Below are positions 5,078 through 62,359 of a DNA stretch of 64,000 nt, in pieces; the stretch's first letter is position 1; the number at the start of each line of letters is the position of its first letter. The stretch is from Giardia intestinalis (lineage: Eukaryota). The notes under the pieces are model-generated. The model saw only the letters and a list, made by a program, of their open reading frames with translations, did not search any database and was not told the origin of the DNA. The position numbers and the translations under genes are program-made. The stretch lies in NCBI GenBank assembly GCA_000002435.2, contig CM018789.1. The stretch is one strand, 5' to 3'.

Positions 5078-5201
5078 CAACAGCTGTCTAAAAGTATTAA
5101 TTTTTAATCTTAGATCGTGTTATTAGTGGAAGTAGTGTTTGCTTGTTACCTCCTATTCGAGTAAATCTTTCGATTAAAGCGAGTCCCCATGCGCCTCGTT
5201 G

Positions 5202-42816: not shown

Positions 42817-42835
42817 TATTTTGATTTACATCGCC

Positions 42836-45307
42836 GGTCCGAGCAATCCGTACCCCGTACAAGTCCTCCCCGCGGAAGGCGGACCCCGCCCGTTCGCCGC
42901 CCCAAGCCCAGAGTCCGGGGTTCGGGTCAGAACGTCGGTTGAGTCCGGGGGAGAAGAGCCCGACCGTGCACGCCAGCTCTGGCATCAACCGGAACGCCCT
43001 TCATACCTGCCGAGGAGCTAAGGCGCAATCCCTACCACCCAGTAGCACGACCGAGGCCACGGGGTTGAGCGGACGACAGCACCAGAGCGCCCGGCTGCTC
43101 GAGGCCCGGCGGACCAGAGGGCCTCCGTGAGGAAGACAGGGACCCGGCTCGTCCAGGGCACTGCGAAGCGCCGCCCCTCGCCGGGGATGCGCTCCGACGC
43201 CAGGAGAACGAGGGCCGCGGGCACACGTGGACGCCTGATAAGACGGCGGAAAAGCCGCGCCTCTCGTGCGAGCACGTGAAGCACTCATGAGCGCGCTTCC
43301 GGTGCTCCAGGTCCGGCCCGGGCCTCAGGAGCCCACTGAGACGGAGCATCCTACGCTGAGCGGCACCGGGTGAACGTTGAACTAGTAGGAGCGGAAGAGC
43401 ACGTGCCTGTCCTGAGCGAAGACCCTCCGCGGCGAGGCCGTCCAGACGCATGCAGCACAGACACCGGATGCAGGGCGCTGCTGAGTGGGGCAGCGGGGAT
43501 AGAGAAGGACATCCCCCTCAGCGCCCGTCGTGTGAACGTGCTCAGGGGAGGGTACCTAACACCCCGCAGAGCTCCAGTCGAGAGCCGAGGAGACGTGCCT
43601 CCCCACACAGCGGGGAAGCGGAGGAGCGGCATTCACCGGCCCGCTGCCCGGCTTGCAGCCTCTGCCTCGCCTCGAAGGGGAGCTGCCCCCTAACAGCGCC
43701 ACCGACGACCAGCACCTTGCTATCCAGAGGGCCGGGTCAGGACGGCCTGGACCTACGCTGGCGAGTCCATCCGGGTGCAGGCCTTCAGCGAGATCCTCGG
43801 CGCGATCCATAGGATGGGATGCGTGCTCTGTACGGTTCCGCCTGGCCCTTCCCCAAGAATGAGACAGGACAACCACGATCAGGGGACGATCATGATGCGC
43901 TCCACAAGGTAGTCCCGAGTCCCCTGGAGACCCAGACACTAGCCTTCCCGAGACAGAGCAGACTGCGTTCTACTGACTGCACATGGTGGCGTTCGCATGG
44001 CACAGGGAGACACAGGCTGATGGGCACGGCGACCTCGCTCGACATAACGAGCACCCCGACAGCAGACGGCCTCTGCCGGGCGAGTGTGCCCCGTCCCGAG
44101 GAGCTGCGTCGAGGCCTTCCTCCGGCTGTGACACGCCGCACCCCTGGGCTCGGTCCCTCGGGGCCCTACGCATGCTTCTGTGCTGCGCGGGACAGAACCT
44201 GCTCGCCAGGAGCTGAGGAGAGACCCCGCTCAGTGCCCATGCCGACGACACACTCATCTTCCATAGTAGCAACAATGACGTGGCGGGGGTAGTCACAGAG
44301 GCGGCAGGCCTGGTGAAGCAACATGGCTCGACGGTCAACACTGACAAGTATAGGAACACAGAGGGGCAGGAGGCCTCCTTCCTGGCCGGTCGAAGGAGCT
44401 CCCAGGGCAACGGAGGGCCGAAGCCAGTGATGGCACTAATCACTCGCCACGCTGGTCGAGATGGACCCGCACGTGGCCTATGTGAATCCCTCGGCAAGAG
44501 ATGGGAGCCTTGGGGTGCTTGGCTGGCAGAGGCGGACTGATCCTGCCCACACCGAAGAGTGGCGGCCTGGAACACCTGTCTGGCGTCTGCCGCAGCAGTT
44601 GGTAATCCCTTGACACCATCGAGTAGACGGGTGCCGGTTGTAGAGAGACGGCCTGACAGCGAACCGGTCCTGATCGCTCCTGGTGCCTCAGACGACGCCT
44701 CGACAGACCGAAGCATCACCCCAAGTGTGCTGTGCAGATGGACCAGCCCACAGGTCAGCTAAGCCAGACACGCTGCACAGGGTGAGCGTCGATGTGATCT
44801 CGTGCTGGGTGACGGACCAGCTGCAAGAGTGCACTGTGATTCATGAATAGGAGGGCAAACCAGAAGCCAGACCTCTCCTCCAACGCCAACGCATGGGAGT
44901 ACTCCGCCGGCATCCACGAACGCGTACTATGACTCCAAGACAGAGGCGCACGAGGAGCGCACCCTCCGGTCATACTCGGGACTGATGGTGCCCTCCACGA
45001 AGAGACGAAGAGGCACCCCGAGGAACGGGGTAGACACCCGGGGTCGTGGCGTGGGATCTTCGTCGTAGAGCATCAGCACCACGAAGCAATCCTGGAGTAC
45101 ATTGCCAGAGTCAATTGCTCTTGAGACTAGATCGCCGCGACTGACGCAAGGCCCTGAGATAGTAGGTGCCCACCAGTGCCAGACGGTAGTTGACCCCGAC
45201 GGGCCAGAGGAAGGAAAGTCCTAGGGGCACCGCGAGGAGCGGCAGCTTTTAGGAGAGCTGGGACATAGGGGTTCTTCCGCCGGGATCGAGGGCATCCGAC
45301 TCTCGGA
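42836..45307 (+). mobile_element. Copy 1 of a 2.47-kb GC-rich element: a 5'-truncated, degenerate non-LTR retrotransposon fragment (GilD-like dead element).
   Basis: Directly repeated at 51579-54050 (offset 8743 bp). All embedded ORFs are identical between copies except one amino acid (...EERSGFWF... versus ...EERSDFWF...). It contains an RT-like frame (44220-44540). The boundary is uncertain by about 5 bp because of a 1-nt indel at the 5' junction. Confidence 0.7.
44220..44540 (+). pseudogene. Reverse-transcriptase remnant (motif C and the downstream thumb region) of a non-LTR retrotransposon, interrupted by stops and frameshifts.
   Basis: Frame-0 translation reads GETPLSAHADDTLIFHSSNNDVAGVVTEAAGLVKQHGSTVNTDKYRNTEGQEASFL.... 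This parallels the L1/R2-type xYADDhhh-(about 20 aa)-GhxhNxxKT segment (for example FADDMIVYLENP...VSGYKINVQKSQAFLY). A TGA sits 9 codons upstream, and the upstream RT motifs are not in frame. Confidence 0.55.
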
Positions 45308-45596
45308 CTCTGGACTCTGCCTGGAAGCGAAAGACCTGCCTTCACTTGCCTCAACTGCCATTAAACTCTGATCTTACCCAGTGTACCGAAGCAAAAATAA
45401 GACTGTTCGGGCTGCCCCCGCGTGCTAATAGATCCCATCAGAAGTAGACGAGTCGTGGAGATGGGCTCGTTCCACGTGCCTGCTCCTCTGAGGATGCGCT
45501 GCCCTTGCTCCCCACCGAGTCCCTGGTGCTCCTCTCCGTCTCTCTGTGATCAGTAACATGTGGCACTGGCGCTTCGCTCTACCGGCCTTAGAGCGT

Positions 45597-47648
45597 TTAC
45601 TCTGAGAGGAGGGCAATTATCTCATGGCGCCTCCATAGCTTGGCCATGTCAAGGGCAGTTTCGTCCATATTATCTCTAATATTCTTCTCCCTCACAAGGA
45701 GCCTCGCACACTCTACGTAGCCGCTCTGTGCAGCGACTGTGAGAGCGGGCCATCCATCGTTATTTTGCATACCGCCCTCTTTCTCCACAAGTAATCTGAC
45801 ACAGCTTGCGTGGCCATTCTGCGCAGCCCACATGAGGGCCGTCCATCCATCCCTCGATTGCGCACAACTCTCCTTTTCTACGAGTAGCTCAACACAGCCA
45901 GCTTCGCCACGTTCTGCAGCAATCATAAGGGCGGTCCATTTGCTGTTATCCTGTATACCGCCTTCCTGCCTCAGAAGCAATTCGACACAGCTTCTGTGGC
46001 CTTTCCCCGCTGCAGCCATAAGGGCGGTTTCCCCATCGTTATCTTGCATGCCAACCTCGTTTTTCAAGAGCAATTTGGCACACTCTGAATGGCCAGCACT
46101 TGCTGCAGCCATGAGGGCCGTCCACCCCTTATCGCTCTTCATGCCGCTTTCCTTCTCTAGCAGGAGCTTAAGACAGTCTGCGCGGCCAGTCCTTGCAGTA
46201 TACATGAGGGCGGTCCATCCGTTGCTATCTTTCAGTCCCTTCTCTTTCTCCGCGAGCAGCTCCACAATCTCTGTGTATCCATATACCGCCGCCCTTATCA
46301 GAGCAGTTCCCTCGTATATCTTCCAGTCACCTACAAGTGCGCATCCCTTCATCTTCATGCCCCCCTGGAGCGGTATGAGGGCCTTCACAGCCTCCACGTC
46401 GTTTCTATCGACTGCCTTCATGAGGTCGGTGGAGTCGTCCTCCTCTATTAGGTGCTTCTCTGGCTCTTCTGACTCGTCTGATTCGTCTGACTCCTCCATT
46501 TCGTCTGTCTCGTCTGTTTCGCCCATCTCTGTCTTAATCTCCTGTATTTCCCTGAATAGCTTGGCGGCAATAGCACACTGCTCCCTAATGATGTCCATTC
46601 TTGCAGCTCGATCAGGAGGGTCCTTCCTAAGAGCTACTGTTTCGTTGTTGGCTCTATTCAAGGCTTCTACAAAGGCTGCGCGCACCTCCTTTAACCTTGT
46701 ATCTTGGGCCTCTTGTTCATCAGCAGAGATGCCAAGCCTCCGAAGTAGACGGGCGAGCCTTCTGGCAGTCGGCCTCTCGGCGGGATCGAGGACGAGCATC
46801 CTCTCAAGGACGCTCCTTGCGAGGTCGTCTGCGACACCGCTCAGGTCCGGCCTCCATCCGTCGACGAAGACCTCTGCTGGCTCCCTGCCCCCCAAGAAAT
46901 CCGGCTTCCTCAGGGTGGCGAGCTCGTATGCGACGGCCCCGAGGCTCCAGACGTCGGATGCGGCGGTCGTGTCACCGCAGAGGAGTGTCTCGGGGGCCAT
47001 GTACGCGGGGTCGCCAGCCTTCGCAGCTCCGCTCGATATGCCCTCGCAGAACCCGAAGTCTGCAAGAACAACACGCCGCCCGTCCCCAGCGAACATGATG
47101 TTGTCGGGCTCGAGGACAACGCTAGAGGGCAGGCCGTTGTGGGCACCTCTGCTGAGCCCGTGGAGGTGGGCAAGGGCGCCAGCCAGCTGCCCCAGAAGGG
47201 AGAGCACCAGCTTGCTGGGAATAGGTTCGTGAATGTCCCTGTAGTCGGTGATGAACTGCCTCAGGTCCCCGCAGCAGCGGTCTGTGACAACAAGGATCGT
47301 ATTGTCATCCATAAGCACCTGGTGGTATTTGAGAACGTCTGGGTGAAGGGTGCCTAGAAGAACGGTCAGCCTACGCCGAATGGCATCTACGCTGTGTTGA
47401 TCCAGACCATCAAGCCGGATTTCTTTCACAGCAAGGTACGGGCATCCCCTGAGAGAGTAGACGGCACCGTGGGCATCCTTACTGAGCATGTTACCTAGGC
47501 GTCTATGCAACTTTTTGGGGCTGAACACGGGAACGCCACCAGCGCCCATCGGCCCTGAAAAGCCGCTAACTAAATTGTTACTGGCATCTCCTAGGGCGCC
47601 CTCTGCGGTGGCTAAGGCAGAGGGGTAAAGCCCGCAGTCAACAGCCAT
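45597..47648 (-). CDS. NEK-like protein kinase domain (probably catalytically degenerate) fused to C-terminal TALM-type ankyrin repeats (Giardia NEK/protein 21.1 family).
   Basis: From ATG at 47648 (the track start at 47654 is GTG). The kinase core has ...YLAVKEIRL... and DFGFCEG but an altered catalytic loop (HGLSRGAHNGLPSSVVLEPDNIMF, no HRD). An acidic linker follows, then about 9 ankyrin repeats (GWTALMYTARTGRADCLKLLLEKE...). Confidence 0.8.
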   Translation of the reverse strand: MAVDCGLYPSALATAEGALGDASNNLVSGFSGPMGAGGVPVFSPKKLHRRLGNMLSKDAHGAVYSLRGCPYLAVKEIRLDGLDQHSVDAIRRRLTVLLGTLHPDVLKYHQVLMDDNTILVVTDRCCGDLRQFITDYRDIHEPIPSKLVLSLLGQLAGALAHLHGLSRGAHNGLPSSVVLEPDNIMFAGDGRRVVLADFGFCEGISSGAAKAGDPAYMAPETLLCGDTTAASDVWSLGAVAYELATLRKPDFLGGREPAEVFVDGWRPDLSGVADDLARSVLERMLVLDPAERPTARRLARLLRRLGISADEQEAQDTRLKEVRAAFVEALNRANNETVALRKDPPDRAARMDIIREQCAIAAKLFREIQEIKTEMGETDETDEMEESDESDESEEPEKHLIEEDDSTDLMKAVDRNDVEAVKALIPLQGGMKMKGCALVGDWKIYEGTALIRAAVYGYTEIVELLAEKEKGLKDSNGWTALMYTARTGRADCLKLLLEKESGMKSDKGWTALMAAASAGHSECAKLLLKNEVGMQDNDGETALMAAAGKGHRSCVELLLRQEGGIQDNSKWTALMIAAERGEAGCVELLVEKESCAQSRDGWTALMWAAQNGHASCVRLLVEKEGGMQNNDGWPALTVAAQSGYVECARLLVREKNIRDNMDETALDMAKLWRRHEIIALLSE

Positions 47649-47842
47649 TGCCACTTTTAAATCTCCATCTTAACTTGTTTTTTAAGAAGGTATTCAGTCC
47701 ATGTTTACAGAAGCCGGCCTTTTCTATACTATACAGTAGTCATCAATTAATGAACAGAATTATGTACTCATTTGGAGGTTTCCTCCTCTAGTGTGCTTAG
47801 ATACAACAAAGATGATTCATTTCACCAACCGGTTACTTCCAA

Positions 47843-47940
47843 TACTGTGTTGTTGGGACCTCCGCCTGTGGACATGGCCCAAAGGTTCCACGAATAAGCC
47901 CTCGCTCAATTCCTGGCCATATCTAGAGAAAAAGGCTACT
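47843..47940. repeat. Left arm of a perfect 97-98-bp terminal inverted repeat pair.
   Basis: The reverse complement of 47850-47940 is identical to 48862-48953. The arms enclose about 920 bp of AT-rich sequence with no ORF of 60 aa or more. Confidence 0.8.
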
Positions 47941-48861
47941 CGATGAGCACAAGGGCCCCCTCTAGTTACACAGAGGGACGACTAGAGACTCAACACAATT
48001 GTCACATACCACCTTCAGCTGTTAAGGGAATCAACACAGAACCGGGAACCAGATATTTGACTTATAGGCACGTATAAAATGATAGCTGGACCCATCTAGT
48101 CATCAGACGAACCAGTTACGGCGAAATATTCGGAAATACAGAGATAGAACATTCGTAATTATTTATGGAGCGAGCGATTTCTTCATCCTATATCCAGAGG
48201 CACCTTGAGAAACTCCGCGTGGTAACCAAACGAACACCTAACGAGATTAATCATAGGCTTTGAGAGCTAGCCTTCAGGGTGACTGAAGGAGGGAGAACCA
48301 CTGGCTACCCGAAGTTCTGAGGTATCCCCAAGCTCATAGCTTAGACAGACGACCATGGGACAAGAGAAACAACCACATTTTCACCAACCACTGTCACCCC
48401 CAATCCAAAGAGCCACAGCGATAGAAACCAACTAGACCCTAGAGGAAGGAACAACTATCGATAGGTAACGAGGTTCTGCATAGCGAACTACGGGCCCGCA
48501 GCATCCATCTGTTTTCACGGCGTTAGGATGGACTTTCGTAGGATTAGGGATGCCTTATGGGGTAAGAGACTATCGGTGGAATCGAAGTAGCAACGACGGC
48601 TACAGACAGAGGGGATAAAACGCTGTAAAAGAGGACATTGATGACCCGAATTCTCATCCATCATAGATAACAGACCAAGGAAGGAGGTGGAATTTATTAG
48701 TTACACGTGTTTGCAGAAAATTGGGGTCCCGGGCGAATCAGGCGTGCGAGCATCACCAGACGTGCATACCTGAGCCGAATGCACACACTACATAAGATCA
48801 CCAAAAAGAGTTGTATCCAGACGTACTAGTGAGAAGGAATCTCTTGTTACATTATTTACTA

Positions 48862-48958
48862 GTAGCCTTTTTCTCTAGATATGGCCAGGAATTGAGCGAG
48901 GGCTTATTCGTGGAACCTTTGGGCCATGTCCACAGGCGGAGGTCCCAACAACACAGCA
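48862..48958. repeat. Right arm of the 97-98-bp inverted repeat pair.
   Basis: See the left arm. The match is agtagcctttttctctagatatggccaggaattgagcgagggcttattcgtggaacctttgggccatgtccacaggcggaggtcccaacaac. Confidence 0.8.
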
Positions 48959-50292
48959 CTTAGATATAATCATAGCGTTAATACCCTCTCATGATTTCCA
49001 ACCCGTTTATGCCACAAAAGGAGAGATAATTATTTTCATGTTATATATAGACTGACGATACTTTTATTATGCTTGGTCTTCATAAGCAGCCAGTGACTTT
49101 TAATAGATATTTGGTTGTGTGGCATAAAACAACATGAGAAATACTAGCTCCGTTTCCTGCTTACAGTCGTTCGATCAGTTATAGCCTCGTGAGCATTAGG
49201 ACTCTGATGACATATCTTGTAAATGTTAGCCTCGAAATATCTGTTGATTTAGAAGACGAGAGACAACCCTATGTGTACCATCTTCTTGACTCCATGGGGT
49301 ATCCTTGTATACTAATCCATATATAAACCTGCCAGATAGATGGTAGAGCAGCTATTGTGGAGAGCTTACATAGGATCCTGTCTGCAGGCATAGTTCTGGG
49401 ATTTCACGAGTGAATTCCTTCATTTTTTGCTATCTCTAGAAACAATTAAGAGCTTCCCCCGCGACCTTGTACACCAAATCCGGTGCATCTTTAAATTCTT
49501 CAGATGGCACTCGTGTCTAACCTGAGTGAGTATGCTCTAATGGCACATATAGTTTTACTCCTTGTATGAGTCTGGCCCTTTCAAGAGCGTTAGCAGGCTG
49601 CGAGCACACATCTTTCTCAGACTCGGTAGTCTAGCTTTGGTCCCCCATCGTCCTCCTTATCTTCGGAGCATTCCCTGTCCTGTAAAACTGCACTCTATCA
49701 TCAGGGAGGCAAGGAGAGACTCAGAATTTATGAGTCGCTCTGTGGCGTTTATCCATCTGTGTTACTGGATTCTGGGCCCCCAACTTGCATTAGTAGCTCA
49801 GGAGTCGCATAAGCGTACCCACTTCCTTTGTAGCTTTATGTGGAGATGAAGCTAAATGGCTGCTAACAGGTCTGTGGATTCTTTTGGCAAGTTTGCATGT
49901 CGAATCAGTATGTTGTTAGGGATTTCGACTCCATATTCCTGTCTGGCCCGAATGCATGCGATGGCCGTTTTTGCCTTTTCACCGCTTCTACCTTGCTATG
50001 GGTTCTTAGCAGTCGATGTTTCTTCTTTTTCTCAATCGTTCTGATCACCCATGCAAGGAGCCCTGCTAACAGTTAGACGTACGTTGACAGTAGGCAATCA
50101 CTGGGTGGCCAGACTTTCAGCTCAGTCACTTCTGATCGGCTTCGTCGGATGCTCAGTTCGTGATCATCATAAGGCTCGAAGTGAAAAGCTTCACATTGTG
50201 TCGTTTATAATCCTCGTCTTCAACATAACTAATATAAATGGAAGTTTGCTCATGTATTTCTGCATCTACTCGCAGGTAAAGAGTCCAAGACT

Positions 50293-50889
50293 TTACTTAG
50301 CCTCATCTAGTGACAGGAGTAAATTATCGTCAGTAACTGCGGAAATTTCCCTATCAATTTTTGCGGCGGGACACGGGCGCCCTAAAGTAACTCTACTTTC
50401 AATTATGGTTTTTCTCATTCTGGTAATACTCCCCTCACATCGCATATAAGCATACTGACGTGAAGGAGATGTAAAGTAAACAGGAAATTTCCCAGAGAAC
50501 ATGGTTATAGCAATAACACATCGATATATTTTCTCAGCTGATGGCGTTATTTGCGGTCCACCGATAATGGGTATAAACTTTACCGAGTAGAGCTTTGAAT
50601 CTATTTGGGGTGTCATTTGATTTATAGTAGTACTTACTGAGAGACGGATTTGATCTCTTTGGCGATTAGATAATACAAAACCTCTTATACGGCTGCTATC
50701 ATCTATGCCAAAAAACAAATGCCCGCCGTTGGTATTAATAAAGGCATTTAAGTAAATTTGGGAATATCTTCTAATCTCTCGTATAAGGTTCTTTGTATCT
50801 TGTAGTGCTTTAAACTCCGTCTCTTTATCCTCTTCGAAATCTATCAGGTCATCATAGCGGAGGGACTCTGGAAGGGGACGAAGGGTCAT
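50293..50889 (-). CDS. AlbA_2 / Schlafen-like domain protein (198 aa).
   Basis: ATG at 50887-50889. The N-terminal half has the AlbA_2 (PF04326-type) signature ...ETEFKALQDTKNLIREIRRYSQIYLNAFINTNGGHLFFGIDDSSRIRGFVL... (EFK, then AF.NT.GG.L.FGIDD...I.G). It lies in a low-GC island between the two retroelement copies. Confidence 0.55.
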   Translation of the reverse strand: MTLRPLPESLRYDDLIDFEEDKETEFKALQDTKNLIREIRRYSQIYLNAFINTNGGHLFFGIDDSSRIRGFVLSNRQRDQIRLSVSTTINQMTPQIDSKLYSVKFIPIIGGPQITPSAEKIYRCVIAITMFSGKFPVYFTSPSRQYAYMRCEGSITRMRKTIIESRVTLGRPCPAAKIDREISAVTDDNLLLSLDEAK

Positions 50890-51578
50890 CTAAATTTCAG
50901 TAAATGTTGATGAACTTTACATAAACAGTATACAGTAACAAACTGAAGACTGGGCCGTATCGCCCTCCGAATGCCGGGACCAAAGACACCAGGCCAACGC
51001 GGAGGTCTTCGAGCGGCGCCAATGGTGCACAGGGCTGAAGCCGGAGGTTCAGGATCTGCTGCCGAGGGCAGCCGGCGCCCGGTTGTCGGGCCGGGTCCTC
51101 CGAGCTGCCCCGCGATCGACGACGACGCAGAGGCGGGCATCAAGGGCGTCGTCTCCAGATGTCTCCCAGGTCGCTGTACGCCCCATGCAAGGCATTGATG
51201 GAGCCACTTGCCCCGATGGCAGTTTCGACACCATCCTTCAAGGGCGCGCTGGACGCGTTTCTGCGCTGAGAGCGGGAGGAAGGTAAGCACGAAGAGAGCT
51301 TGCTCTGTCCATTGAGGTCGGCTGCTAGCCACTATTAGCAAGTCCTTCGTGCGGGCCGCCGCGCGGTGGCTCCCTCACTCATTCATCCAGAACTCGAACT
51401 TGGGGGTCGCCCACCTCTGGAGAAGAGCCTTGTGCTTCCTCCCTAGGGGGCCGTTGTTACCCCGCGATGCGTTCCTCTGGCCAATCTGGGCCAGCTGCTC
51501 CCTGCACCCGGTGGGCACCTGCTACCCCAGGGCTATGCAGCTCGCCTTCTGCCTCATCGAGGCTGATCTGCCACCTGC

Positions 51579-54050
51579 CGGCCGAGCAATCCGTACCCCG
51601 TGCAAGTCCTCCCCGCGGAAGGCGGACCCCGCCCGTTCGCCGCCCCAAGCCCAGAGTCCGGGGTTCGGGTCAGAACGTCGGTTGAGTCCGGGGGAGAAGA
51701 GCCCGACCGTGCACGCCAGCTCTGGCATCAACCGGAACGCCCTTCATACCTGCCGAGGAGCTAAGGCGCAATCCCTACCACCCAGTAGCACGACCGAGGC
51801 CACGGGGTTGAGCGGACGACAGCACCAGAGCGCCCGGCTGCTCGAGGCCCGGCGGACCAGAGGGCCTCCGTGAGGAAGACAGGGACCCGGCTCGTCCAGG
51901 GCACTGCGAAGCGCCGCCCCTCGCCGGGGATGCGCTCCGACGCCAGGAGAACGAGGGCCGCGGGCACACGTGGACGCCTGATAAGACGGCGGAAAAGCCG
52001 CGCCTCTCGTGCGAGCACGTGAAGCACTCATGAGCGCGCTTCCGGTGCTCCAGGTCCGGCCCGGGCCTCAGGAGCCCACTGAGACGGAGCATCCTACGCT
52101 GAGCGGCACCGGGTGAACGTTGAACTAGTAGGAGCGGAAGAGCACGTGCCTGTCCTGAGCGAAGACCCTCCGCGGCGAGGCCGTCCAGACGCATGCAGCA
52201 CAGACACCGGATGCAGGGCGCTGCTGAGTGGGGCAGCGGGGATAGAGAAGGACATCCCCCTCAGCGCCCGTCGTGTGAACGTGCTCAGGGGAGGGTACCT
52301 AACACCCCGCAGAGCTCCAGTCGAGAGCCGAGGAGACGTGCCTCCCCACACAGCGGGGAAGCGGAGGAGCGGCATTCACCGGCCCGCTGCCCGGCTTGCA
52401 GCCTCTGCCTCGCCTCGAAGGGGAGCTGCCCCCTAACAGCGCCACCGACGACCAGCACCTTGCTATCCAGAGGGCCGGGTCAGGACGGCCTGGACCTACG
52501 CTGGCGAGTCCATCCGGGTGCAGGCCTTCAGCGAGATCCTCGGCGCGATCCATAGGATGGGATGCGTGCTCTGTACGGTTCCGCCTGGCCCTTCCCCAAG
52601 AATGAGACAGGACAACCACGATCAGGGGACGATCATGATGCGCTCCACAAGGTAGTCCCGAGTCCCCTGGAGACCCAGACACTAGCCTTCCCGAGACAGA
52701 GCAGACTGCGTTCTACTGACTGCACATGGTGGCGTTCGCATGGCACAGGGAGACACAGGCTGATGGGCACGGCGACCTCGCTCGACATAACGAGCACCCC
52801 GACAGCAGACGGCCTCTGCCGGGCGAGTGTGCCCCGTCCCGAGGAGCTGCGTCGAGGCCTTCCTCCGGCTGTGACACGCCGCACCCCTGGGCTCGGTCCC
52901 TCGGGGCCCTACGCATGCTTCTGTGCTGCGCGGGACAGAACCTGCTCGCCAGGAGCTGAGGAGAGACCCCGCTCAGTGCCCATGCCGACGACACACTCAT
53001 CTTCCATAGTAGCAACAATGACGTGGCGGGGGTAGTCACAGAGGCGGCAGGCCTGGTGAAGCAACATGGCTCGACGGTCAACACTGACAAGTATAGGAAC
53101 ACAGAGGGGCAGGAGGCCTCCTTCCTGGCCGGTCGAAGGAGCTCCCAGGGCAACGGAGGGCCGAAGCCAGTGATGGCACTAATCACTCGCCACGCTGGTC
53201 GAGATGGACCCGCACGTGGCCTATGTGAATCCCTCGGCAAGAGATGGGAGCCTTGGGGTGCTTGGCTGGCAGAGGCGGACTGATCCTGCCCACACCGAAG
53301 AGTGGCGGCCTGGAACACCTGTCTGGCGTCTGCCGCAGCAGTTGGTAATCCCTTGACACCATCGAGTAGACGGGTGCCGGTTGTAGAGAGACGGCCTGAC
53401 AGCGAACCGGTCCTGATCGCTCCTGGTGCCTCAGACGACGCCTCGACAGACCGAAGCATCACCCCAAGTGTGCTGTGCAGATGGACCAGCCCACAGGTCA
53501 GCTAAGCCAGACACGCTGCACAGGGTGAGCGTCGATGTGATCTCGTGCTGGGTGACGGACCAGCTGCAAGAGTGCACTGTGATTCATGAATAGGAGGGCA
53601 AACCAGAAGTCAGACCTCTCCTCCAACGCCAACGCATGGGAGTACTCCGCCGGCATCCACGAACGCGTACTATGACTCCAAGACAGAGGCGCACGAGGAG
53701 CGCACCCTCCGGTCATACTCGGGACTGATGGTGCCCTCCACGAAGAGACGAAGAGGCACCCCGAGGAACGGGGTAGACACCCGGGGTCGTGGCGTGGGAT
53801 CTTCGTCGTAGAGCATCAGCACCACGAAGCAATCCTGGAGTACATTGCCAGAGTCAATTGCTCTTGAGACTAGATCGCCGCGACTGACGCAAGGCCCTGA
53901 GATAGTAGGTGCCCACCAGTGCCAGACGGTAGTTGACCCCGACGGGCCAGAGGAAGGAAAGTCCTAGGGGCACCGCGAGGAGCGGCAGCTTTTAGGAGAG
54001 CTGGGACATAGGGGTTCTTCCGCCGGGATCGAGGGCATCCGACTCTCGGA
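51579..54050 (+). mobile_element. Copy 2 of the 2.47-kb GilD-like non-LTR retrotransposon fragment. It probably extends further 5' than copy 1.
   Basis: Near-identical to 42836-45307. The ORF 51349..51873+ crosses the 5' repeat boundary in frame, continuing upstream into the GC-rich 690-bp segment 50890-51578. This suggests copy 2 is the longer, less truncated element. Confidence 0.7.
52963..53283 (+). pseudogene. Reverse-transcriptase remnant (copy 2), identical to 44220-44540.
   Basis: Same ...LSAHADDTLIFHSSNNDVAGVVTEAAGLVKQHGSTVNTDKYRN... frame, offset by 8743 bp. Confidence 0.55.
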
Positions 54051-54324
54051 TCTTGGACGGTAAGCAGGAGACCCATCCAGTGCAGTAGCTTGCACGAGGG
54101 AATTTGCTCAGATACACCTAGTGAAACGTGTCTGTTCGTCACATCCCCTACTTTCCCCAAGTCAAATGCCAGAGCCTTGGGGGCCTATTGGTGCTTTGTT
54201 GAGGACTGCTGTGCACAGACCCCAGATGCTCGACTAGACAGACTATCAGTGAACATGTTTATTGGCGACCTTTGGTCTGAAAAATTAGCGAGAGTCCGGC
54301 CCTGCTTTCCGACTGCCCTGCGCT

Positions 54325-57496: not shown

Positions 57497-60400
57497 TTAC
57501 ATTACTGTTTGAACACCTGGGCAGGGCACTGTGTTAGATACATTTCTCCATATTTGATTGTCATATTGGTCTACTGCCCCGATGCAGACGAACAGCCTGC
57601 GTGCCCGGCTTACAGCCACAAGGGACCTACAGAGGTTATTCCTGAATTCATTACCTCTGGGGCCCGACAACGACAGGAAGACGACATCTGCCTCGAGCCC
57701 CTGATATCCGTCGCTGGTTTCGACGTCCAAATTAAGACGCACCTTCAGGTGTGTATCGCTGTCTATGGTGAACGTAGTATCGCTGCACATGTTCCGCAGG
57801 ACAGCTATGACAGGGTCGGAAAGAATGTACTGCTTTTGCGAGTGATATAACGATAGCAGAGCAACACTGATAGAGACTTCGTATGCATTGATCGCTGGAC
57901 TGTATAGTAGCAGGGTTTTGCTTTGGGGCGCCGAACTGTTGCTTATTATCCTATAGACGATGCGAAGCAAAAGAATGAGTGCAGCATTCTTTTCTTGTTC
58001 GCTTATACAACAGTTCCTCGTGTCCGTCATATCGGGCAGAAGTTTCTTTGTATCTGAGGACTGTATTATGGGCGGTGGACAAAGCGCTATTCTCTCGTGT
58101 ATATTTTTCAATAGATTATTGATTTGGCTCCGCTGGACTGCTGGTTTGTCCAAGTTGTCTGGCAAACAGAAGAAACAGCGCCCTTTAAACTCTGATAGTA
58201 TGACTAAGTCAACATAGCTTTTGAAGGTCACGTTAGGTATATCCCGCAAGCCCCCTTTTATACAGCACGACTTGGGAAGTCGTGACTCATAGAGGGACCG
58301 GTACAAATCTGCGATTTCTGGGACGCTTCGCGCCTGTTCCTCCAGCGTTACTATGGGAATGCCTTCGCGGGAAGAATAGCATAGCCGATGAAACAGTGAC
58401 CAGTCGAGTGCTGCCGTGGACGTTAGTTTGCAATCTTGTATCAGGGGCGGTAGTTGGAGGACGTCTCCGATTAGGATGAGCTTATCAAAAGTTAGCAGTA
58501 GTAAAAGGGCTAGCTCGTGCTCGGCGAGCCGCGCTGCCTCCTCTATTATGATGTGTCGCGCCGGATTTTTCTGACATCGATAGTTGATCATCCTCATCGC
58601 TAAATCCCCATTAGCTGTTCTTCGATTTGCCTTCTTGCTTGTGGATTTGCCCCCGACTACGTCGACGATGGTCTGTATCATTTGGTGTCCACGTTCGCGC
58701 ACATCCAAAGGGTCTCCTTCGAAACGCTCGGATTGCTTCTGCAGGAACTGGACCCTGCTGCTTACCCCACTTATTGTGCCAACGACGATAGTGGCATGAT
58801 TCATTAGCCAGCTTATGTACACCATGTAATCGCTCAAAATGAACTTTAATAGATTATACTTTCTTGAGCGGATAGGGAGAGAATCCCTATTAGCCTCGCA
58901 ATAACGCAATATCTTCTTCGAGAGTGCGGAGAAGGCGCGACTTGGACGGGAGGAGATCTCATTCTGCATCTCGGCAAAGTCTATCTCCGTAACGCGCAAC
59001 TCGGTGGCGACATTGACGAGGTACTGAAGTGGCATGAAGTTGCGCACAAATGGATCAGAAGACCGTTCTCCAATTCGTACAGTGAATGGGATGGTGTACG
59101 CGGCCCAATTGTCTGCCGTGAGGATATACTTTGCCAGCTGATCTGCTGCGTTGTTGCTATGTGCAACAAGGAAAAGCTGCATCCCAAGATGAATATCTGT
59201 GAGCATATCGAGGCAGCTAGCATATGTCCGAATCGAGCTTGCGTAGGCGGAACTGAAGGCTCTCCACTCGGCGTCCCCTGTTGCAATATCGAGGCTTGTC
59301 CTTATCCACTTGGAATCAGCGCCTTTCGTAAGCAGCAGGACCTTTGAAATGAGAGAAAGCGAGGTTGACTTCCCGCTTCCCGGACACCCAAGAATCAGTA
59401 GGAGGGGAGAAAGGACGGCATAAACGAGGGCCTTGAACTGCGACGGCCTCAGCGTCTTTTCTGTGAGGAGCTGCTTGCGGGGAACAAGCTGCGTGCCCAC
59501 CTCCAAAGCTGGCTCTGTGAGCGTCACCCGGCAAGGCTCAACCTCTAGGTCAATCGAGCTGATATCGATCAGAATGCTTGTCCGAGGATCTGCAGAGCTG
59601 GCTGGAGAAAGCCTCAGGTGCACCGGGGTTCTGTGCATAGTGGTGAGCGCCTGATAGATGCTCCCCATTGCGCCTTCGATATAGGAAGGATCTCGATCAG
59701 AGACGGCAGCATATCCGTAGCATATGCAGGAGTTGCAAGGAAGCCTGAGCTTGTCATATCGGCCCAGAGCCAGTGCACTGAAGTTGGGGGACATGTCATC
59801 AAAGCGCCGATAGTAGAGGTCCAGCAGGTACTCTGCTATGCACTGGGCTGCGTCTAAGTGTAGGCTGACAGACGGGTGAGTCCACGAAATGTAGAATGCG
59901 AGGGAGCCGGGGCTTATCGCATATGCACCGTATGCCTCCCTGAGCATATACGTGTCGAACTCTGCCTCTGCTAGCTGGATGTTGAAGACACTCGTTGTCT
60001 TGTCGGTTGAGGTGCAGTCGTCCATGCCTTTGCGCAGCTGACTGCACAGCTGGCACGTCCTTGCCACGTAGATGGCCTGGATGGTCTTCTCCGGCAGCGC
60101 TACTTGATAGATGAAGGGGTACTGCTCCAGCCTCCCGTTGTCTCCGTACCTAATTCTGCCGCGAACCGCCTCCTCGTCGACATAGAGCGCCAGCCTCCCG
60201 GAGTCCTCGAACGTCAGCCCTCGGATGGTGTGCTTTGGGTTACAGAACGTGCTGCTGTCCGACAACAGCTTCACGGTTATCGCAGAGTATATCTCGGCCA
60301 GACTGTGGTACGACTTCACCCAGAGGTAGCCGAGGCTGCACGCCGGCGCGAGGAGGGTGCTACACAGGAAAAGCGTCCCGGTGTCGTATCTGTGCATGAT

Positions 60401-61792
60401 GTTTCCAAGGACTACCCCGTGGAGCATCATGTTGATGCACTCGTTGAGCGTCTGGAAGGAGAGAGAGGAGTCCTTCTGGCTCTTGTTCGCCATGAGTTCT
60501 CTGAAGTACCGCATCTTCTTGTCCTTGGCAGTCCTGTCGACGTAGAAGGACGCCTGGATGCAGGGCAGGTGGTGGTAGTAGCTGCATGTCACGAGGGCGA
60601 AGATGAACTCGCAGAGAAACAGCCTTACCCCCACAGACATACGACCGGTATTTGTGATGGTCTTGAGAAGGTCAAACACAAGCGAGAGAAGCACCGTTCC
60701 GCGGTGTGGGCTGTTGTAGTCCTTCAGCAGGCGGAAGCTCAGGATGGACTCTATGTAGTCTATGCAGGACAGCTGTTGGTATCCTTCGAAGATGCACAGG
60801 GCGGAGAGGAGAAACAGGCAGGACACTAACAGCATTCGGACCCTAACGTTCTGGGACGGAGTTGTGCCCTCTGGTATAGACACGATAAGAGGGTCCCTGT
60901 GGGCATCGACAAGAATGTTGAGGCATAGATTTATCAGCTGGTTGGATCTAAACTGCTTGCGGGGGTCGACCAGCTCGTGGACTGTAAAGTAGACTCCAGA
61001 GATCGTCGGGTCTGCAGGCAAAAACGGCTGCCCTGAGCGAAGTCTTGGCCGCAATAGGTCCACCACCCGAGAGGGATACTCGGTGTCTATGCAGTATGGA
61101 ATGTATGGTAGGAGACGGGTGAGCAGGGATAGGCATGGGTCCAGGACGTGCAGGTGCCCCCGGCACGCGGGCAGGCTAAGCTCCAGGGCATTGGCCAGCA
61201 CCAGGAACGCCCGTCCGTCCGCACACTCATTTGCGATATAGTGCAGCCTCCCTAGGACGAGCCCCTCGTACAGGAGCACAGAGGCGCACACATAGGACGC
61301 GACGACCACGTGGCGGAGGGCTTGGTCCGAGGAGTCCCTCTGCCTGAGGACAGGGAGCAGGTGCTGCAGTAAGGCCTCTGACGCGCCGGCTGCCGACATC
61401 CCAGAGTGCAATTCTGTCCATAGGTAAGCGTCCGAGTGTGCTGCCCTTCCTCCTATCGGCCTTAGCTTCACTGCAACGGTCTCCACGTGGTCCTGGGAGG
61501 CATCGCAAGAGTGGAGAAGTGGCGGGAAGAAGTGGTCTCTTCCTAGGGTTGCAATGTCTGGGGCTGCGAAGTGGAGGAAGGCGGCATGGAGTGCCGCGGG
61601 GAAGGATGAATCGCGGTCGTTGATCACTCCGTCTACTGTCCACTTGTACCTCAGTAGCGTCTTTGTGTCCATAGAACCGTGCTGCCCGTCGAGCCAGGGA
61701 GAGATCCAAATGTGCTGGAATTTTGGTTTTGGGGCACCTCTGTCCACTGTCCTTACACCGAGTGATAGAGCCACTTCGTCAGTGGGTGCCAT
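57497..61792 (-). CDS. Large Upf1-like superfamily-1 helicase (1431 aa) with an N-terminal region of about 830 aa of unknown function. The architecture is Aquarius/SEN1-like but unconfirmed.
   Basis: The C-terminal third has SF1 motifs. Walker A is LILGCPGSGKSTS. Motif II-like is HIIIEEAARL, degenerate relative to DEAAQ. Motif III is LILIGDVLQLPP. Motif V is TSDGYQGLEADVVFLS. Motif VI is VAVSRARRLFVCIGA. ATG is at 61790-61792. Confidence 0.75.
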   Translation of the reverse strand: MAPTDEVALSLGVRTVDRGAPKPKFQHIWISPWLDGQHGSMDTKTLLRYKWTVDGVINDRDSSFPAALHAAFLHFAAPDIATLGRDHFFPPLLHSCDASQDHVETVAVKLRPIGGRAAHSDAYLWTELHSGMSAAGASEALLQHLLPVLRQRDSSDQALRHVVVASYVCASVLLYEGLVLGRLHYIANECADGRAFLVLANALELSLPACRGHLHVLDPCLSLLTRLLPYIPYCIDTEYPSRVVDLLRPRLRSGQPFLPADPTISGVYFTVHELVDPRKQFRSNQLINLCLNILVDAHRDPLIVSIPEGTTPSQNVRVRMLLVSCLFLLSALCIFEGYQQLSCIDYIESILSFRLLKDYNSPHRGTVLLSLVFDLLKTITNTGRMSVGVRLFLCEFIFALVTCSYYHHLPCIQASFYVDRTAKDKKMRYFRELMANKSQKDSSLSFQTLNECINMMLHGVVLGNIMHRYDTGTLFLCSTLLAPACSLGYLWVKSYHSLAEIYSAITVKLLSDSSTFCNPKHTIRGLTFEDSGRLALYVDEEAVRGRIRYGDNGRLEQYPFIYQVALPEKTIQAIYVARTCQLCSQLRKGMDDCTSTDKTTSVFNIQLAEAEFDTYMLREAYGAYAISPGSLAFYISWTHPSVSLHLDAAQCIAEYLLDLYYRRFDDMSPNFSALALGRYDKLRLPCNSCICYGYAAVSDRDPSYIEGAMGSIYQALTTMHRTPVHLRLSPASSADPRTSILIDISSIDLEVEPCRVTLTEPALEVGTQLVPRKQLLTEKTLRPSQFKALVYAVLSPLLLILGCPGSGKSTSLSLISKVLLLTKGADSKWIRTSLDIATGDAEWRAFSSAYASSIRTYASCLDMLTDIHLGMQLFLVAHSNNAADQLAKYILTADNWAAYTIPFTVRIGERSSDPFVRNFMPLQYLVNVATELRVTEIDFAEMQNEISSRPSRAFSALSKKILRYCEANRDSLPIRSRKYNLLKFILSDYMVYISWLMNHATIVVGTISGVSSRVQFLQKQSERFEGDPLDVRERGHQMIQTIVDVVGGKSTSKKANRRTANGDLAMRMINYRCQKNPARHIIIEEAARLAEHELALLLLLTFDKLILIGDVLQLPPLIQDCKLTSTAALDWSLFHRLCYSSREGIPIVTLEEQARSVPEIADLYRSLYESRLPKSCCIKGGLRDIPNVTFKSYVDLVILSEFKGRCFFCLPDNLDKPAVQRSQINNLLKNIHERIALCPPPIIQSSDTKKLLPDMTDTRNCCISEQEKNAALILLLRIVYRIISNSSAPQSKTLLLYSPAINAYEVSISVALLSLYHSQKQYILSDPVIAVLRNMCSDTTFTIDSDTHLKVRLNLDVETSDGYQGLEADVVFLSLSGPRGNEFRNNLCRSLVAVSRARRLFVCIGAVDQYDNQIWRNVSNTVPCPGVQTVM

Positions 61793-62359
61793 AGACCCCA
61801 GTTTGGTAGTGTTATGGGTCTCAGTGATGGCCCCACTTCTTCACGAGTGCCGTAGCCGGCATCTCCGTCACTGCGGTCATCGTCGGGGACCTCGTCAGCT
61901 TTCTCTGCCGGTGGTTCGTATGTAGACTTAAACGTATACTTAAGTAATAGACGTGTCATCAATAAGTCCCGACATTTGCCCTTTAACAGACAAAACATCT
62001 AACTTGTTTTTACCGAGACACGCACAGTACAAATACAGAGGTCTACCACATAGATTGGCTATCCCTTAAGCAGAGCTCACTGACTAATGCCAGTGCGCGT
62101 ATGGATGTTATTACTTCTTGCTAAATAATCTAGAAGATAATGGAGGCGGTATTCTGCGTTAAGCAATCTGCTTGGCCGCAGCCAACGAGATTGCGACATC
62201 GAGACAGAGTAACTGAATTCTTGGGAAAAACATAACATGATATTCCCAGTTGTAGACACTTTCGGTAGAAAGACGCAGTGTGGATCTATGAGCGAATTCG
62301 AGAGCTAGCACAGCCCTTGGTTCAAAAATCTAATCCTTTAATTTGCTCATTGTTAAACA

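What the first reader, a model, noticed from the sequence alone, without database searches (positions are those of the whole stretch)
50293..50889. AlbA_2/Schlafen-like domain protein encoded in a low-GC island between retroelement copies
The 198-aa product carries a good match to the AlbA_2 core (...KETEFKALQDTKNLIREIRRYSQIYLNAFINTNGGHLFFGIDDSSRIRGFVL...). This domain forms the N-terminal core of Schlafen proteins and of many prokaryotic putative nucleic-acid-binding regulators and defence-associated proteins. I am not aware of a characterised Schlafen/AlbA_2 protein in diplomonads. Its location in an AT-rich, ORF-poor stretch flanked by mobile-element remnants suggests cargo of a mobile element or a horizontally acquired gene.
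Basis: partly seen in the sequence, partly recalled or inferred. Interest (0 to 1): 0.6.

Follow-up and report, generated by a model that had tools for sequence, protein, structure and literature searches.

The report
Truncated Schlafen-type RNase gene in Giardia
This is a real, already annotated Giardia gene for a small protein made only of a Schlafen-type RNA-cutting domain; it descends vertically from a larger protist "nuclease plus NTPase switch" gene and has lost the switch, so it is not foreign DNA or mobile-element cargo.

Summary
The ORF at 50293-50889 (-) encodes 198 aa and matches Pfam SLFN_AlbA_2 well above threshold (E 6.7e-11). It keeps the three residues essential for SLFN11 RNase activity, here E20, E25 and K27. 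Its GC3 of 0.34 is the lowest of 18 ORFs compared, and two 99.8%-identical 2.48-kb GC-rich repeats flank the locus.

The interpretation as horizontal acquisition or mobile-element cargo is not supported. The protein is Giardia intestinalis WB XP_037901563.1. Its closest relatives are all metamonads, then Amoebozoa, and the gene tree follows the species tree. The closest full-length relative (857 aa, 45% identity, from an unidentified Giardia-like diplomonad) lies in the same divergent pair with a methyltransferase and upstream of a NEK kinase.

Most close relatives carry an N-terminal AlbA_2 domain followed by a STAND-type P-loop NTPase. The WB copy stops in the linker and no NTPase remnant is detectable. 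The neighbouring methyltransferase is a frameshifted pseudogene. WB versus DH gives dN/dS of about 1.0 from only 9 changes.

Best reading: a stand-alone Schlafen-type endoribonuclease domain left after loss of its regulatory module. It may still be active or may be decaying. It is a new member of a known kind, of moderate-to-low interest.

The parts
50293..50889 (-). CDS of the 198-aa stand-alone AlbA_2 (Schlafen-type RNase) domain protein, Giardia intestinalis WB XP_037901563.1 / KAE8301344.1 / UniProt D3KGY7. Predicted catalytic residues are E20, E25 and K27, plus D64.
   Evidence: ORF. Pfam PF04326 E 6.7e-11. Exact database match. E20, E25 and K27 are invariant and D64 nearly invariant in 31 family members. 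They align to SLFN11 E209, E214, K216 and D252 (residue roles from PMC9482658).
50890..50968 (.). Short divergent intergenic and promoter region between AlbA_2 and the methyltransferase pseudogene. An AT-rich 'ctgaaatttagATG' sequence sits directly upstream of the AlbA_2 start codon.
   Evidence: Sequence. No differences between WB and DH over 50890-50947. The nucleotide alignment to L002 spans this region. Reading it as a Giardia-type AT-rich initiator rests on my own knowledge.
50969..51294 (+). Pseudogene of a class-I SAM-dependent methyltransferase. Matching pieces lie in three reading frames with stop codons between them. It is the positional counterpart of the intact 213-aa methyltransferase next to the 857-aa relative.
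   Evidence: tblastn E 7e-13, 37% identity to aa 8-113, with further pieces in other frames. WB-DH divergence over 50948-51576 is 5.9%.
47655..50292 (.). AT-rich (GC 0.44), ORF-poor 2.6-kb spacer downstream of the AlbA_2 stop codon, where the roughly 660 missing codons (NTPase and C-terminal region) and an ankyrin gene would be expected. No remnant is detectable.
   Evidence: tblastn with the post-AlbA_2 regions of 18 relatives gave a best E of about 0.2, and a profile HMM over six frames gave a negative score. Frame inspection after the stop shows nothing. The same layout is present in isolate DH.
47845..48956 (.). A 1112-bp ORF-less unit bounded by perfect 96-bp inverted repeats, inside the spacer. 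It may be a foldback or MITE-like element.
   Evidence: Self-BLAST: 47845-47940 against 48956-48861, 100% identity. Sequence. Also present in DH.
45597..47654 (-). NEK kinase with ankyrin repeats, the downstream neighbour on the same strand. It belongs to a multi-copy Giardia subfamily.
   Evidence: Pfam Pkinase and Ank. WB paralogues at 90%, 84% and 78% identity. dN/dS 0.15 between WB and DH. The kinase on L002 matches it at 39% identity, E 2e-63.
42833..45315 (+). Left copy of the 2483-bp GC-rich direct repeat. It may be a dead non-LTR retroelement fragment.
   Evidence: 99.76% identity to 51577-54058. Weak RVT_1 trace in the frame starting at 42834. No Pfam domains in its ORFs.
51577..54058 (+). 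Right copy of the same 2483-bp repeat. It begins roughly where the methyltransferase pseudogene would be expected to end.
   Evidence: The DH contig AHGT01000140.1 ends inside both repeat copies, so the repeats flank the locus there too.

Best explanation
SHOWN. The gene encodes a complete single AlbA_2 (Schlafen-type) domain and nothing else. It is the positional orthologue of an 857-aa gene in a related diplomonad and belongs to a metamonad and amoebozoan family. In the typical architecture of that family, an N-terminal AlbA_2 domain is followed by a STAND-type P-loop NTPase and a long C-terminal region, which is an NLR/SAMD9-like layout. In assemblage-A Giardia (WB and DH) the reading frame ends in the linker at a position matching about residue 190 of the relative. 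The NTPase part is gone without trace. The adjacent methyltransferase is a frameshifted pseudogene, and the locus is bracketed by two copies of a GC-rich repeat.

INFERRED. The AlbA_2 domain is a metal-dependent endoribonuclease of the Schlafen type. E20 and E25 would bind the divalent ion (Mn2+ in SLFN11) and K27 would complete the site. The likely substrates are tRNA, at the acceptor stem or anticodon arm, and possibly rRNA, so its effect would be to lower translation. In full-length relatives the NTPase probably holds the nuclease off until a trigger drives oligomerisation. The WB protein lacks that switch, so any activity would depend on self-association of the single lobe and on how strongly the gene is expressed.

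I judge it somewhat more likely than not that it is still a working, low-level or conditionally expressed RNase. The alternative is a young relic.
For: Domain and active site:
- Pfam E 6.7e-11 covering almost the whole profile.
- E20, E25 and K27 are invariant across 31 relatives and align with SLFN11 E209, E214 and K216, the residues shown to be essential for tRNA cleavage (PMC9482658).
- The fold search puts SLFN nuclease domains first and the SAMD9 tRNase domain next.
- The roughly 215-residue AlbA_2-type module of SAMD9 carries its tRNase activity (PMC12331169 abstract), and the solved tRNase-domain chains are 215-216 residues long.
- Bacterial Schlafen proteins are tRNA anticodon-arm nucleases that oligomerise (PMC13056530).

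Family and architecture:
- AlbA_2 plus AAA_16, NB-ARC or NPHP3_N hits in relatives.
- A Walker A motif lies within 160 aa after the domain in 22 of the 33 best-ranked relatives.

Vertical descent:
- Taxa, tree and microsynteny.

Truncation:
-.

Signs that the ORF was kept:
- It is intact and 198 aa in all 7 isolate variants, while the neighbouring methyltransferase is broken.
- A second Giardia copy, in P15, also keeps an intact AlbA_2 domain while its NTPase is degenerate and cut short.
- An AT-rich sequence sits directly upstream of the ATG and AGTAAAG overlaps the stop codon, close to the Giardia polyadenylation signal (consensus recalled from my own knowledge).
Against: - Between WB and DH the gene has 7 nonsynonymous and 2 synonymous changes, dN/dS 1.00. 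That differs from the NEK neighbour (dN/dS 0.15; Fisher p 0.026) and gives no sign of recent purifying selection. The count is only 9 changes.
- One DH change, G61S, hits a near-invariant glycine beside the active-site loop.
- No 60-90% identical orthologue from assemblages B or E turned up in 5.8 billion proteins.
- The surrounding locus is decaying.
- An unregulated nuclease would be expected to be toxic, which favours either silence or inactivity.
- Mammalian Schlafen cores use two lobes. A single 198-aa lobe may not form a substrate groove on its own.
- No expression or biochemical data were available.
- The C-terminal third of the model has low confidence.
Confidence: 0.6

Rival explanations
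1. Non-functional relic. The 198-aa ORF is the still-open 5' stump of a gene inactivated by truncation. It is drifting neutrally and has not yet acquired a stop codon.
For: dN/dS 1.00 between WB and DH, and G61S in DH. The neighbouring methyltransferase pseudogene and the lost ankyrin and NTPase sequences show that the locus is degenerating. No close orthologue in other assemblages. GC3 of 0.337 matches the surrounding non-coding AT-rich DNA rather than Giardia genes.
Against: All nine family-invariant residues and the catalytic E, E and K survive, although the downstream 2 kb has diverged beyond recognition. If both parts had been neutral for the same length of time, the domain should be damaged too. 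A 198-codon ORF in 39.5% GC DNA is unlikely to stay open by chance. All 7 isolate variants are full length. The P15 copy shows the same pattern, with the AlbA_2 domain kept and the NTPase lost.
Confidence: 0.3
2. Nucleic-acid-binding protein without catalysis. It would act as a DNA- or RNA-binding regulator, or as a decoy that associates with other AlbA_2 proteins, as its database name 'DNA-binding domain-containing protein' implies.
For: AlbA_2 domains bind nucleic acids. SLFN5 and mouse SLFN2 lack nuclease activity (PMC9482658). The SAMD9 AlbA_2 domain was crystallised bound to DNA (7ksp).
Against: The nuclease-deficient Schlafens lack at least one of the E, E and K residues (PMC9482658), whereas this protein has all three. 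There is no helix-turn-helix or other DNA-binding module.
Confidence: 0.07
3. One reading: the gene was acquired horizontally or carried in as cargo of a mobile element, which would explain the low GC and the flanking repeats.
For: Lowest GC3 of the ORFs compared. The locus is bracketed by near-identical 2.48-kb repeats with a faint reverse-transcriptase trace. A 1.1-kb inverted-repeat element lies nearby. No close orthologue in assemblages B or E.
Against: The nearest relatives are metamonads, and the tree mirrors the species tree. Gene order and orientation are shared with a distant diplomonad, including the divergent promoter region. The repeats enclose ordinary Giardia genes (a NEK kinase and a methyltransferase pseudogene) as well, so they do not define a cargo unit. 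The low GC extends over 3.3 kb of mostly non-coding DNA.
Confidence: 0.03

Closest known systems
Metamonad and amoebozoan AlbA_2-STAND NTPase proteins, annotated 'AAA-4 domain protein', 'putative ATP-binding protein', 'NLR family CARD domain containing' or 'SARP family regulator'. Examples: Spironucleus salmonicida XP_067764133.1, Monocercomonoides exilis XP_067728635.1, Blattamonas KAK2954749.1, Pelomyxa KAH3761552.1.
   Same: The AlbA_2 domain is homologous over its full length at 35-45% identity with identical invariant residues. The Giardia gene falls inside the Fornicata clade, and it is syntenic with the 857-aa relative.
   Different: The WB protein ends in the linker and has no Walker A, NTPase or C-terminal region. 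None of these family members appears to have been studied experimentally.
Mammalian Schlafen RNases (SLFN11, SLFN12, SLFN13, SLFN14)
   Same: Same fold for the lobe that carries the active site, and the same essential residues (Glu, Glu, Lys) in the same spacing. The predicted chemistry, metal-dependent tRNA/rRNA cleavage, is the same.
   Different: Schlafens have a two-lobed core of about 330 aa plus linker and helicase domains. Here there is only one lobe, which aligns to SLFN11 residues of about 198-280 (chain positions 226-307 minus a 28-residue offset). Identity is only about 25-30%.
Vertebrate Schlafen-like 1 (SLFNL1)
   Same: A eukaryotic protein whose only recorded Pfam domain is AlbA_2. 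The family profile reaches it at E of about 1e-25.
   Different: SLFNL1 is about 310-350 aa with extra N- and C-terminal regions, and identity to the query is 30-38% over a third to a half of the query's length. It serves as the outgroup in the tree.
SAMD9/SAMD9L
   Same: The family this gene derives from has the same logic: an AlbA_2 tRNase effector in front of a STAND P-loop NTPase. The SAMD9 tRNase domain is of similar size, and the fold matches at E 6e-5.
   Different: No SAM, SIR2, TPR or OB domains. Sequence similarity to SAMD9 is marginal (9-15% identity in the structural alignment). The WB protein lacks the NTPase.
Bacterial Schlafen defence nucleases and NLR-like proteins with Schlafen-type effectors
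   Same: A Schlafen ribonuclease domain used as an effector and fused to varied sensor domains. It cleaves the tRNA anticodon arm and oligomerises (PMC13056530; bioRxiv 10.1101/2022.07.19.500537 contains both the Schlafen and NACHT terms).
   Different: No PADLOC model matches either the WB protein or its 857-aa relative. All named close relatives are eukaryotic.

Membership tests
Pfam PF04326 SLFN_AlbA_2 domain family | HMM score above the curated gathering threshold, covering most of the profile | tested here: met
   43.2 bits against 25.3, E 6.7e-11, profile positions 1-116 of 118.
Catalytically competent Schlafen-type RNases | The two metal-binding glutamates and the lysine, equivalent to SLFN11 E209, E214 and K216 | tested here: met
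   E20, E25 and K27 align to them (chain numbering offset 28) and are invariant in 31 relatives. Their roles are taken from PMC9482658.
Catalytically competent Schlafen-type RNases | Demonstrated metal-dependent cleavage of tRNA or rRNA | not testable with these tools
   This needs purified protein and point mutants.
Schlafen family proper (SLFN1-14 type) | A two-lobed (N-lobe plus C-lobe) core of about 330 aa | tested here: not met
   The protein is 198 aa with one AlbA_2 domain. It aligns only to the active-site lobe, at chain residues of about 200-310.
Protist AlbA_2-STAND NTPase (NLR/SAMD9-like) family | AlbA_2 domain orthologous to family members by sequence, tree and synteny | tested here: met
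   45% identity to the 857-aa relative, placement in the Fornicata clade, and shared methyltransferase and NEK neighbours.
Protist AlbA_2-STAND NTPase (NLR/SAMD9-like) family | P-loop (Walker A) NTPase module following the AlbA_2 domain | tested here: not met
   No NTPase in the ORF and no remnant in 2.8 kb downstream. This copy is a truncated derivative, not a full member.
SAMD9/9L family | SAM, AlbA_2, SIR2, P-loop, TPR and OB architecture | tested here: not met
   Only the AlbA_2 fold is shared, Foldseek E 6e-5. No other domains are present. The architecture is taken from PMC12680541.
Horizontally acquired gene or mobile-element cargo | Closest relatives lie outside the host lineage, and there is no conserved host synteny | tested here: not met
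   The closest relatives are metamonads, the tree is congruent with the species tree, and microsynteny is conserved.
Non-LTR retroelement (for the flanking 2.48-kb repeats) | A recognisable reverse-transcriptase domain | tested here: inconclusive
   A single sub-threshold RVT_1 match, E 0.008 and 16.3 bits against 29.6, with an 'AHADD' box. Nothing in the ORFs or against PDB.
Known prokaryotic defence systems (PADLOC) | A match to a PADLOC protein model | tested here: not met
   No families for the WB protein or for the 857-aa relative.

The most novel reading that the evidence does not exclude
The stand-alone Schlafen-type domain is an active Giardia tRNA endonuclease. It could be the still-unidentified enzyme that makes the ~46-nt stress- and encystation-induced sitRNAs, whose cleavage appears to be measured from the tRNA 3' end (PMC2577346). 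Or it could be an effector that restricts Giardiavirus by cutting tRNA. On either reading, the metamonad AlbA_2-STAND proteins would be an NLR/SAMD9-like innate-immune family in protists that diverged very early from animals.
Probability: 0.1. Interest if true: 0.7.

Novelty: new member of a known kind. Interest (0 to 1): 0.33.

Why it matters
Schlafen and SAMD9 tRNA nucleases are now seen as an ancient immune and translation-control module shared by bacteria and animals. This locus shows that the same module, fused to a STAND NTPase, is widespread and vertically inherited in metamonads and amoebozoans. In Giardia duodenalis it has been cut down at least twice to the bare nuclease domain. If the short protein is active, it is a concrete candidate for the unknown tRNA-cleaving activity of Giardia. 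If it is a relic, it records the loss of an NLR-like system in a reduced parasite. In either case it is an uncharacterised member of a known domain family, not a new kind of system, and it is not evidence of gene transfer.

Tried and rejected
- Decayed NTPase or C-terminal sequence downstream of the stop codon. I used tblastn with the post-AlbA_2 regions of 18 relatives at word size 2, and a profile HMM with all filters off, over six frames of 47600-50420. Only noise came back, and eye inspection of the three frames found nothing.
- The syntenic locus in assemblage E, searched through the NEK neighbour. The NEK is multi-copy. The best P15 copy (75% identity) lies in an unrelated context with no AlbA_2 nearby.
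- The P15 'AAA-4 domain protein' (42% identity) as a possible orthologue. It sits at a different locus, next to a deoxynucleoside kinase, so I treat it as a paralogue.
- Rfam scan of the whole window: no hits, so the GC-rich repeats are not rDNA or another known RNA gene.
- NCBIfam and PADLOC: no matches.
- Reverse transcriptase in the 2.48-kb repeat. The ORFs were negative, six-frame Pfam gave only a sub-threshold trace, and PDB sequences gave nothing.
- Literature. No relevant paper combines Giardia and Schlafen. The 2001 PNAS paper on GilM, GilT and GilD is not held, so the repeats could not be compared with those elements.
- The word-index protein search, even with a 31-sequence profile, found few relatives. 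The exhaustive representative search was needed.
- The organism behind SRR17450158 could not be identified with the tools available.
Full report
**1. The observation**

The ORF listing gives an ATG-initiated ORF at 50293..50889 on the minus strand, 198 aa, with the quoted motif. hmmscan against Pfam-A gives PF04326 SLFN_AlbA_2 at E 6.7e-11 and 43.2 bits, against a gathering threshold of 25.3. Residues 20-157 cover profile positions 1-116 of 118. NCBIfam has no match.

phmmer against PDB sequences finds only Schlafens at significant E-values: Schlafen 8/13 (5yd0) at 1.8e-8, SLFN11 at 1.2e-7, SLFN12 at 4e-6 and SLFN14 at 1e-5. All align to the part of the core that carries the active site.

An AlphaFold2 model built on an 11-sequence alignment has mean pLDDT 63.7. 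The core blocks from about residue 30 to 130 mostly reach 70-90, and the region beyond residue 131 falls below 50. Foldseek against PDB returns the SLFN13, SLFN11, SLFN12, SLFN5 and SLFN14 N-terminal nuclease domains (best E 9e-8). The SAMD9 tRNase/DNA-binding AlbA_2 domain follows at E 6e-5 to 2e-4, and the bacterial AlbA_2 protein DIP2311 is far weaker. The domain assignment is therefore not a chance motif.

**2. Composition and repeats**

Gene GC is 0.395 and GC3 is 0.337. That is the lowest of the 18 ORFs I compared in the window; the others have GC3 of 0.417-0.680. The gene sits in an AT-rich stretch: 47655-50292 has GC 0.444. GC-rich DNA lies on both sides.

Self-BLAST shows two direct copies of a 2483-bp repeat at 42833-45315 and 51577-54058, 99.76% identical and 64.5% GC. 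Their ORFs have no Pfam domain. A six-frame scan gives one sub-threshold RVT_1 hit (E 0.008, 16.3 bits against 29.6) around 'LSAHADDTLIF', which resembles a YxDD box. The same stretch finds no reverse transcriptase in PDB. 'Retroelement copies' is therefore plausible but not shown. Rfam finds nothing in the window.

**3. Identity of the gene and organism**

The protein is an exact match to Giardia intestinalis WB XP_037901563.1 / KAE8301344.1 / UniProt D3KGY7, 'putative DNA-binding domain-containing protein'. Six close variants, all 198 aa, come from other Giardia isolates. One is ESU34816.1, 'Putative ATP-binding protein'.

The window context fits Giardia. It contains VSP genes, NEK kinases with ankyrin repeats, HSP70 and a P4-ATPase.

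**4. Relatives**

The exhaustive HMMER search of 1.84 billion cluster representatives finds 744 proteins at E ≤ 1e-3 and 111 at E ≤ 1e-10. The named top hits are:
- Giardia P15 EFO61782.1
- Hexamita inflata
- Spironucleus salmonicida
- Dysnectes brevis
- Chilomastix cuspidata
- Monocercomonoides exilis
- Blattamonas nauphoetae
- Paratrimastix pyriformis
- Barthelona sp.
- Pelomyxa schiedti and Cavostelium apophysatum, both amoebozoans

Several are annotated 'AAA-4 domain protein', which is the earlier name of PF04326 (my own knowledge). A profile of 31 domain segments also reaches vertebrate SLFNL1 at E of about 1e-25. No named close relative is bacterial or viral, and PADLOC has no match.

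An NJ tree of the domain, rooted on SLFNL1, recovers a Fornicata clade at 75% bootstrap. It contains WB and DH, the 857-aa relative, the P15 copy, Hexamita, Spironucleus, Chilomastix and Dysnectes. A Preaxostyla group, Barthelona and an amoebozoan group follow. This is the pattern of vertical descent.

**5. Architecture of the family**

Pfam on the long relatives shows AlbA_2 at the N-terminus followed by weak to moderate AAA_16, NB-ARC, NPHP3_N or ATPase_2 matches, which are STAND-type P-loop NTPases. A Walker A motif lies within 160 residues after the AlbA_2 domain in 22 of the 33 best-ranked relatives and 32 of all 149.

This is the effector-plus-STAND layout. SAMD9/9L has it with an AlbA_2 tRNase (PMC12680541, PMC12331169). 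Bacterial Schlafen defence proteins have a Schlafen effector fused to varied sensor domains (PMC13056530).

**6. Synteny and truncation**

The closest full-length relative is P0010, 857 aa and 45% identical, on a Logan contig from SRR17450158 with GC 38%. Its neighbours are a 213-aa methyltransferase on the opposite strand, 83 bp upstream, then a downstream ankyrin protein and a NEK kinase.

The window has the same order and orientations:
- a methyltransferase-like sequence at 50969-51238 (+), tblastn E 7e-13
- AlbA_2 at 50889-50293 (-)
- the NEK/ankyrin gene at 47654-45597 (-), kinase part 39% identical, E 2e-63

A 445-bp nucleotide alignment (65% identity, E 2e-19) runs from the methyltransferase across the divergent intergenic region into AlbA_2. 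The WB methyltransferase is a pseudogene: its matching pieces lie in all three frames with stop codons between them.

The WB AlbA_2 protein aligns with P0010 residues 1-187 and then stops in the linker. The next 2.6 kb is ORF-poor and contains nothing recognisable from the NTPase or C-terminal region of 18 relatives, by tblastn or by profile HMM. Isolate DH has the same layout, and its contig ends inside both repeat copies.

The P15 protein (350 aa) is at another locus, next to a deoxynucleoside kinase. It aligns with P0010 residues 1-278 and has a degenerate Walker A, 'GSETIGSK' against 'GQESVGKT'. It also ends early, with no further remnant. So G. duodenalis lineages have reduced this family to the AlbA_2 domain at least twice.

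**7. Active site**

In the 31-sequence alignment E20, E25, K27, Y46, N52, G56, G70, P94 and Y138 are invariant, and D64 is nearly so. Using the alignment and a chain offset of 28, E20, E25, K27 and D64 correspond to SLFN11 E209, E214, K216 and D252.

Metzner et al. showed that E209 and E214 coordinate the metal and that E209A, E214A and K216A abolish tRNA cleavage. They also showed that D252A does not, that Mn2+ supports activity, and that Schlafens lacking one of the three residues are inactive (PMC9482658). The Giardia protein therefore has the complete set of essential residues.

**8. Is it still under selection?**

Between WB and DH the gene has 9 differences, 7 nonsynonymous and 2 synonymous. 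Nei-Gojobori dN/dS is 1.00 with dS 0.015. The NEK neighbour has dN/dS 0.15, and Fisher's test on the counts gives p 0.026. One DH change, G61S, affects a near-invariant glycine. This argues against strong recent constraint, but nine changes give little power.

On the other side, every invariant residue survives while the flanking coding sequences have been destroyed. All seven isolate variants are full length. The P15 paralogue shows the same selective retention. The start codon is preceded by an AT-rich sequence, and 'AGTAAAG' overlaps the stop codon, close to the Giardia polyadenylation signal as I recall it.

No orthologue of 60-90% identity from assemblages B or E appeared in the 5.8-billion-protein search. 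That could mean loss, disruption or lack of annotation there.

**9. Mechanism**

What is shown: a complete single-lobe Schlafen-type domain with catalytic residues, derived by truncation from an AlbA_2-STAND gene.

What is inferred: metal-dependent endonucleolytic cleavage of tRNA, and possibly rRNA, lowering translation. In full-length relatives the nuclease is probably controlled by NTPase-driven oligomerisation. In the WB protein that control is missing, so activity would depend on self-association and expression level. For comparison, a bacterial Schlafen forms hexamers (PMC13056530), SLFN11 works as a dimer, and the tRNase activity of SAMD9 resides in its N-terminal AlbA_2-type module (PMC12331169 abstract).

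My probability estimates:

| Reading | Probability |
|---|---|
| Still-functional RNase | about 0.6 |
| Neutral relic | about 0.3 |
| Non-catalytic binder or decoy | under 0.1 |
| Horizontal transfer or mobile-element cargo | about 0.03 |

**10. Speculative link**

Giardia makes ~46-nt sitRNAs by cutting mature tRNAs during encystation and stress. The nuclease is unknown, and the authors suggested it measures from the 3' end (PMC2577346). Schlafen-type enzymes cut at a fixed distance from the tRNA 3' end: SLFN11 cuts 10 nt from it. This makes the gene and its paralogues candidates worth testing, but nothing here connects them directly.

**11. Verdict**

The finding is real and the domain call is right. 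The gene is already annotated, belongs to a known domain family, and is a vertically inherited, truncated member of a protist AlbA_2-STAND family. It is not an acquired gene. I class it as a new member of a known kind, of moderate-to-low interest. It would be more interesting if activity, a sitRNA link or an antiviral role were demonstrated.

Noticed in passing
window 47845-48956: A 1112-bp ORF-less unit bounded by perfect 96-bp inverted repeats (47845-47940 and 48861-48956). It is also present in isolate DH (L004 3158-3253 and 4174-4269). I saw no obvious target-site duplication. It could be a foldback or MITE-like element. As far as I recall, DNA transposons have not been described in Giardia.
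   Followed up: partly
window 50969-51294 (+): A class-I SAM methyltransferase pseudogene. Homologous pieces lie in three frames with stop codons between them. It is GC-rich (0.61 for the 50890-51576 segment), whereas the contig carrying its intact counterpart (L002) has GC 0.38 overall. The right-hand 2.48-kb repeat begins roughly where the gene would be expected to end.
   Followed up: partly
window 351-2716 and 5192-7557: A 2.37-kb inverted duplication at 99.8% identity, carrying VSP genes (ORF 160-1602 matches Pfam VSP). It flanks another VSP-like ORF at 3041-5080.
   Followed up: partly
L003 10001-11053 (Giardia P15, ACVC01000209.1): A second Giardia AlbA_2 gene, EFO61782.1 (350 aa), at a different locus. 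It aligns to residues 1-278 of the 857-aa relative, has a degenerate Walker A ('GSETIGSK') and ends early. This is an independent truncation of the same family.
   Followed up: partly
P0009 (NCBI, unnamed, 2337 aa, 401-kb contig): A protein with about 20 tandem matches to the AlbA_2 domain, which is an unusual repeat array of this domain. The organism is unknown.
   Followed up: no
P0011 = Paratrimastix pyriformis KAJ4455189.1 (2478 aa): This protein is annotated as eIF-2-alpha kinase GCN2 and carries the AlbA_2 plus Walker A module at about residues 1689-1852 and beyond. That is a possible fusion of a translation-control kinase with a Schlafen-type nuclease.
   Followed up: no
window 45076-51707 compared with L004 (isolate DH): Divergence between WB and DH is very uneven. 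The AT-rich spacer differs by 0.7% and AlbA_2 by 1.5%. The NEK gene differs by 4.0% (dS 0.124), the segment holding the methyltransferase pseudogene by 5.9%, and the repeat ends by 5-11%. The GC-rich and multi-copy parts may be affected by gene conversion with paralogues.
   Followed up: partly
window 1499-1626 and 6282-6409 compared with 61838-61957: A short 128-bp similarity at 73% identity between the VSP duplication and the region just upstream of the 1431-aa SF1 helicase ORF (57497-61792). Its significance is unknown.
   Followed up: no
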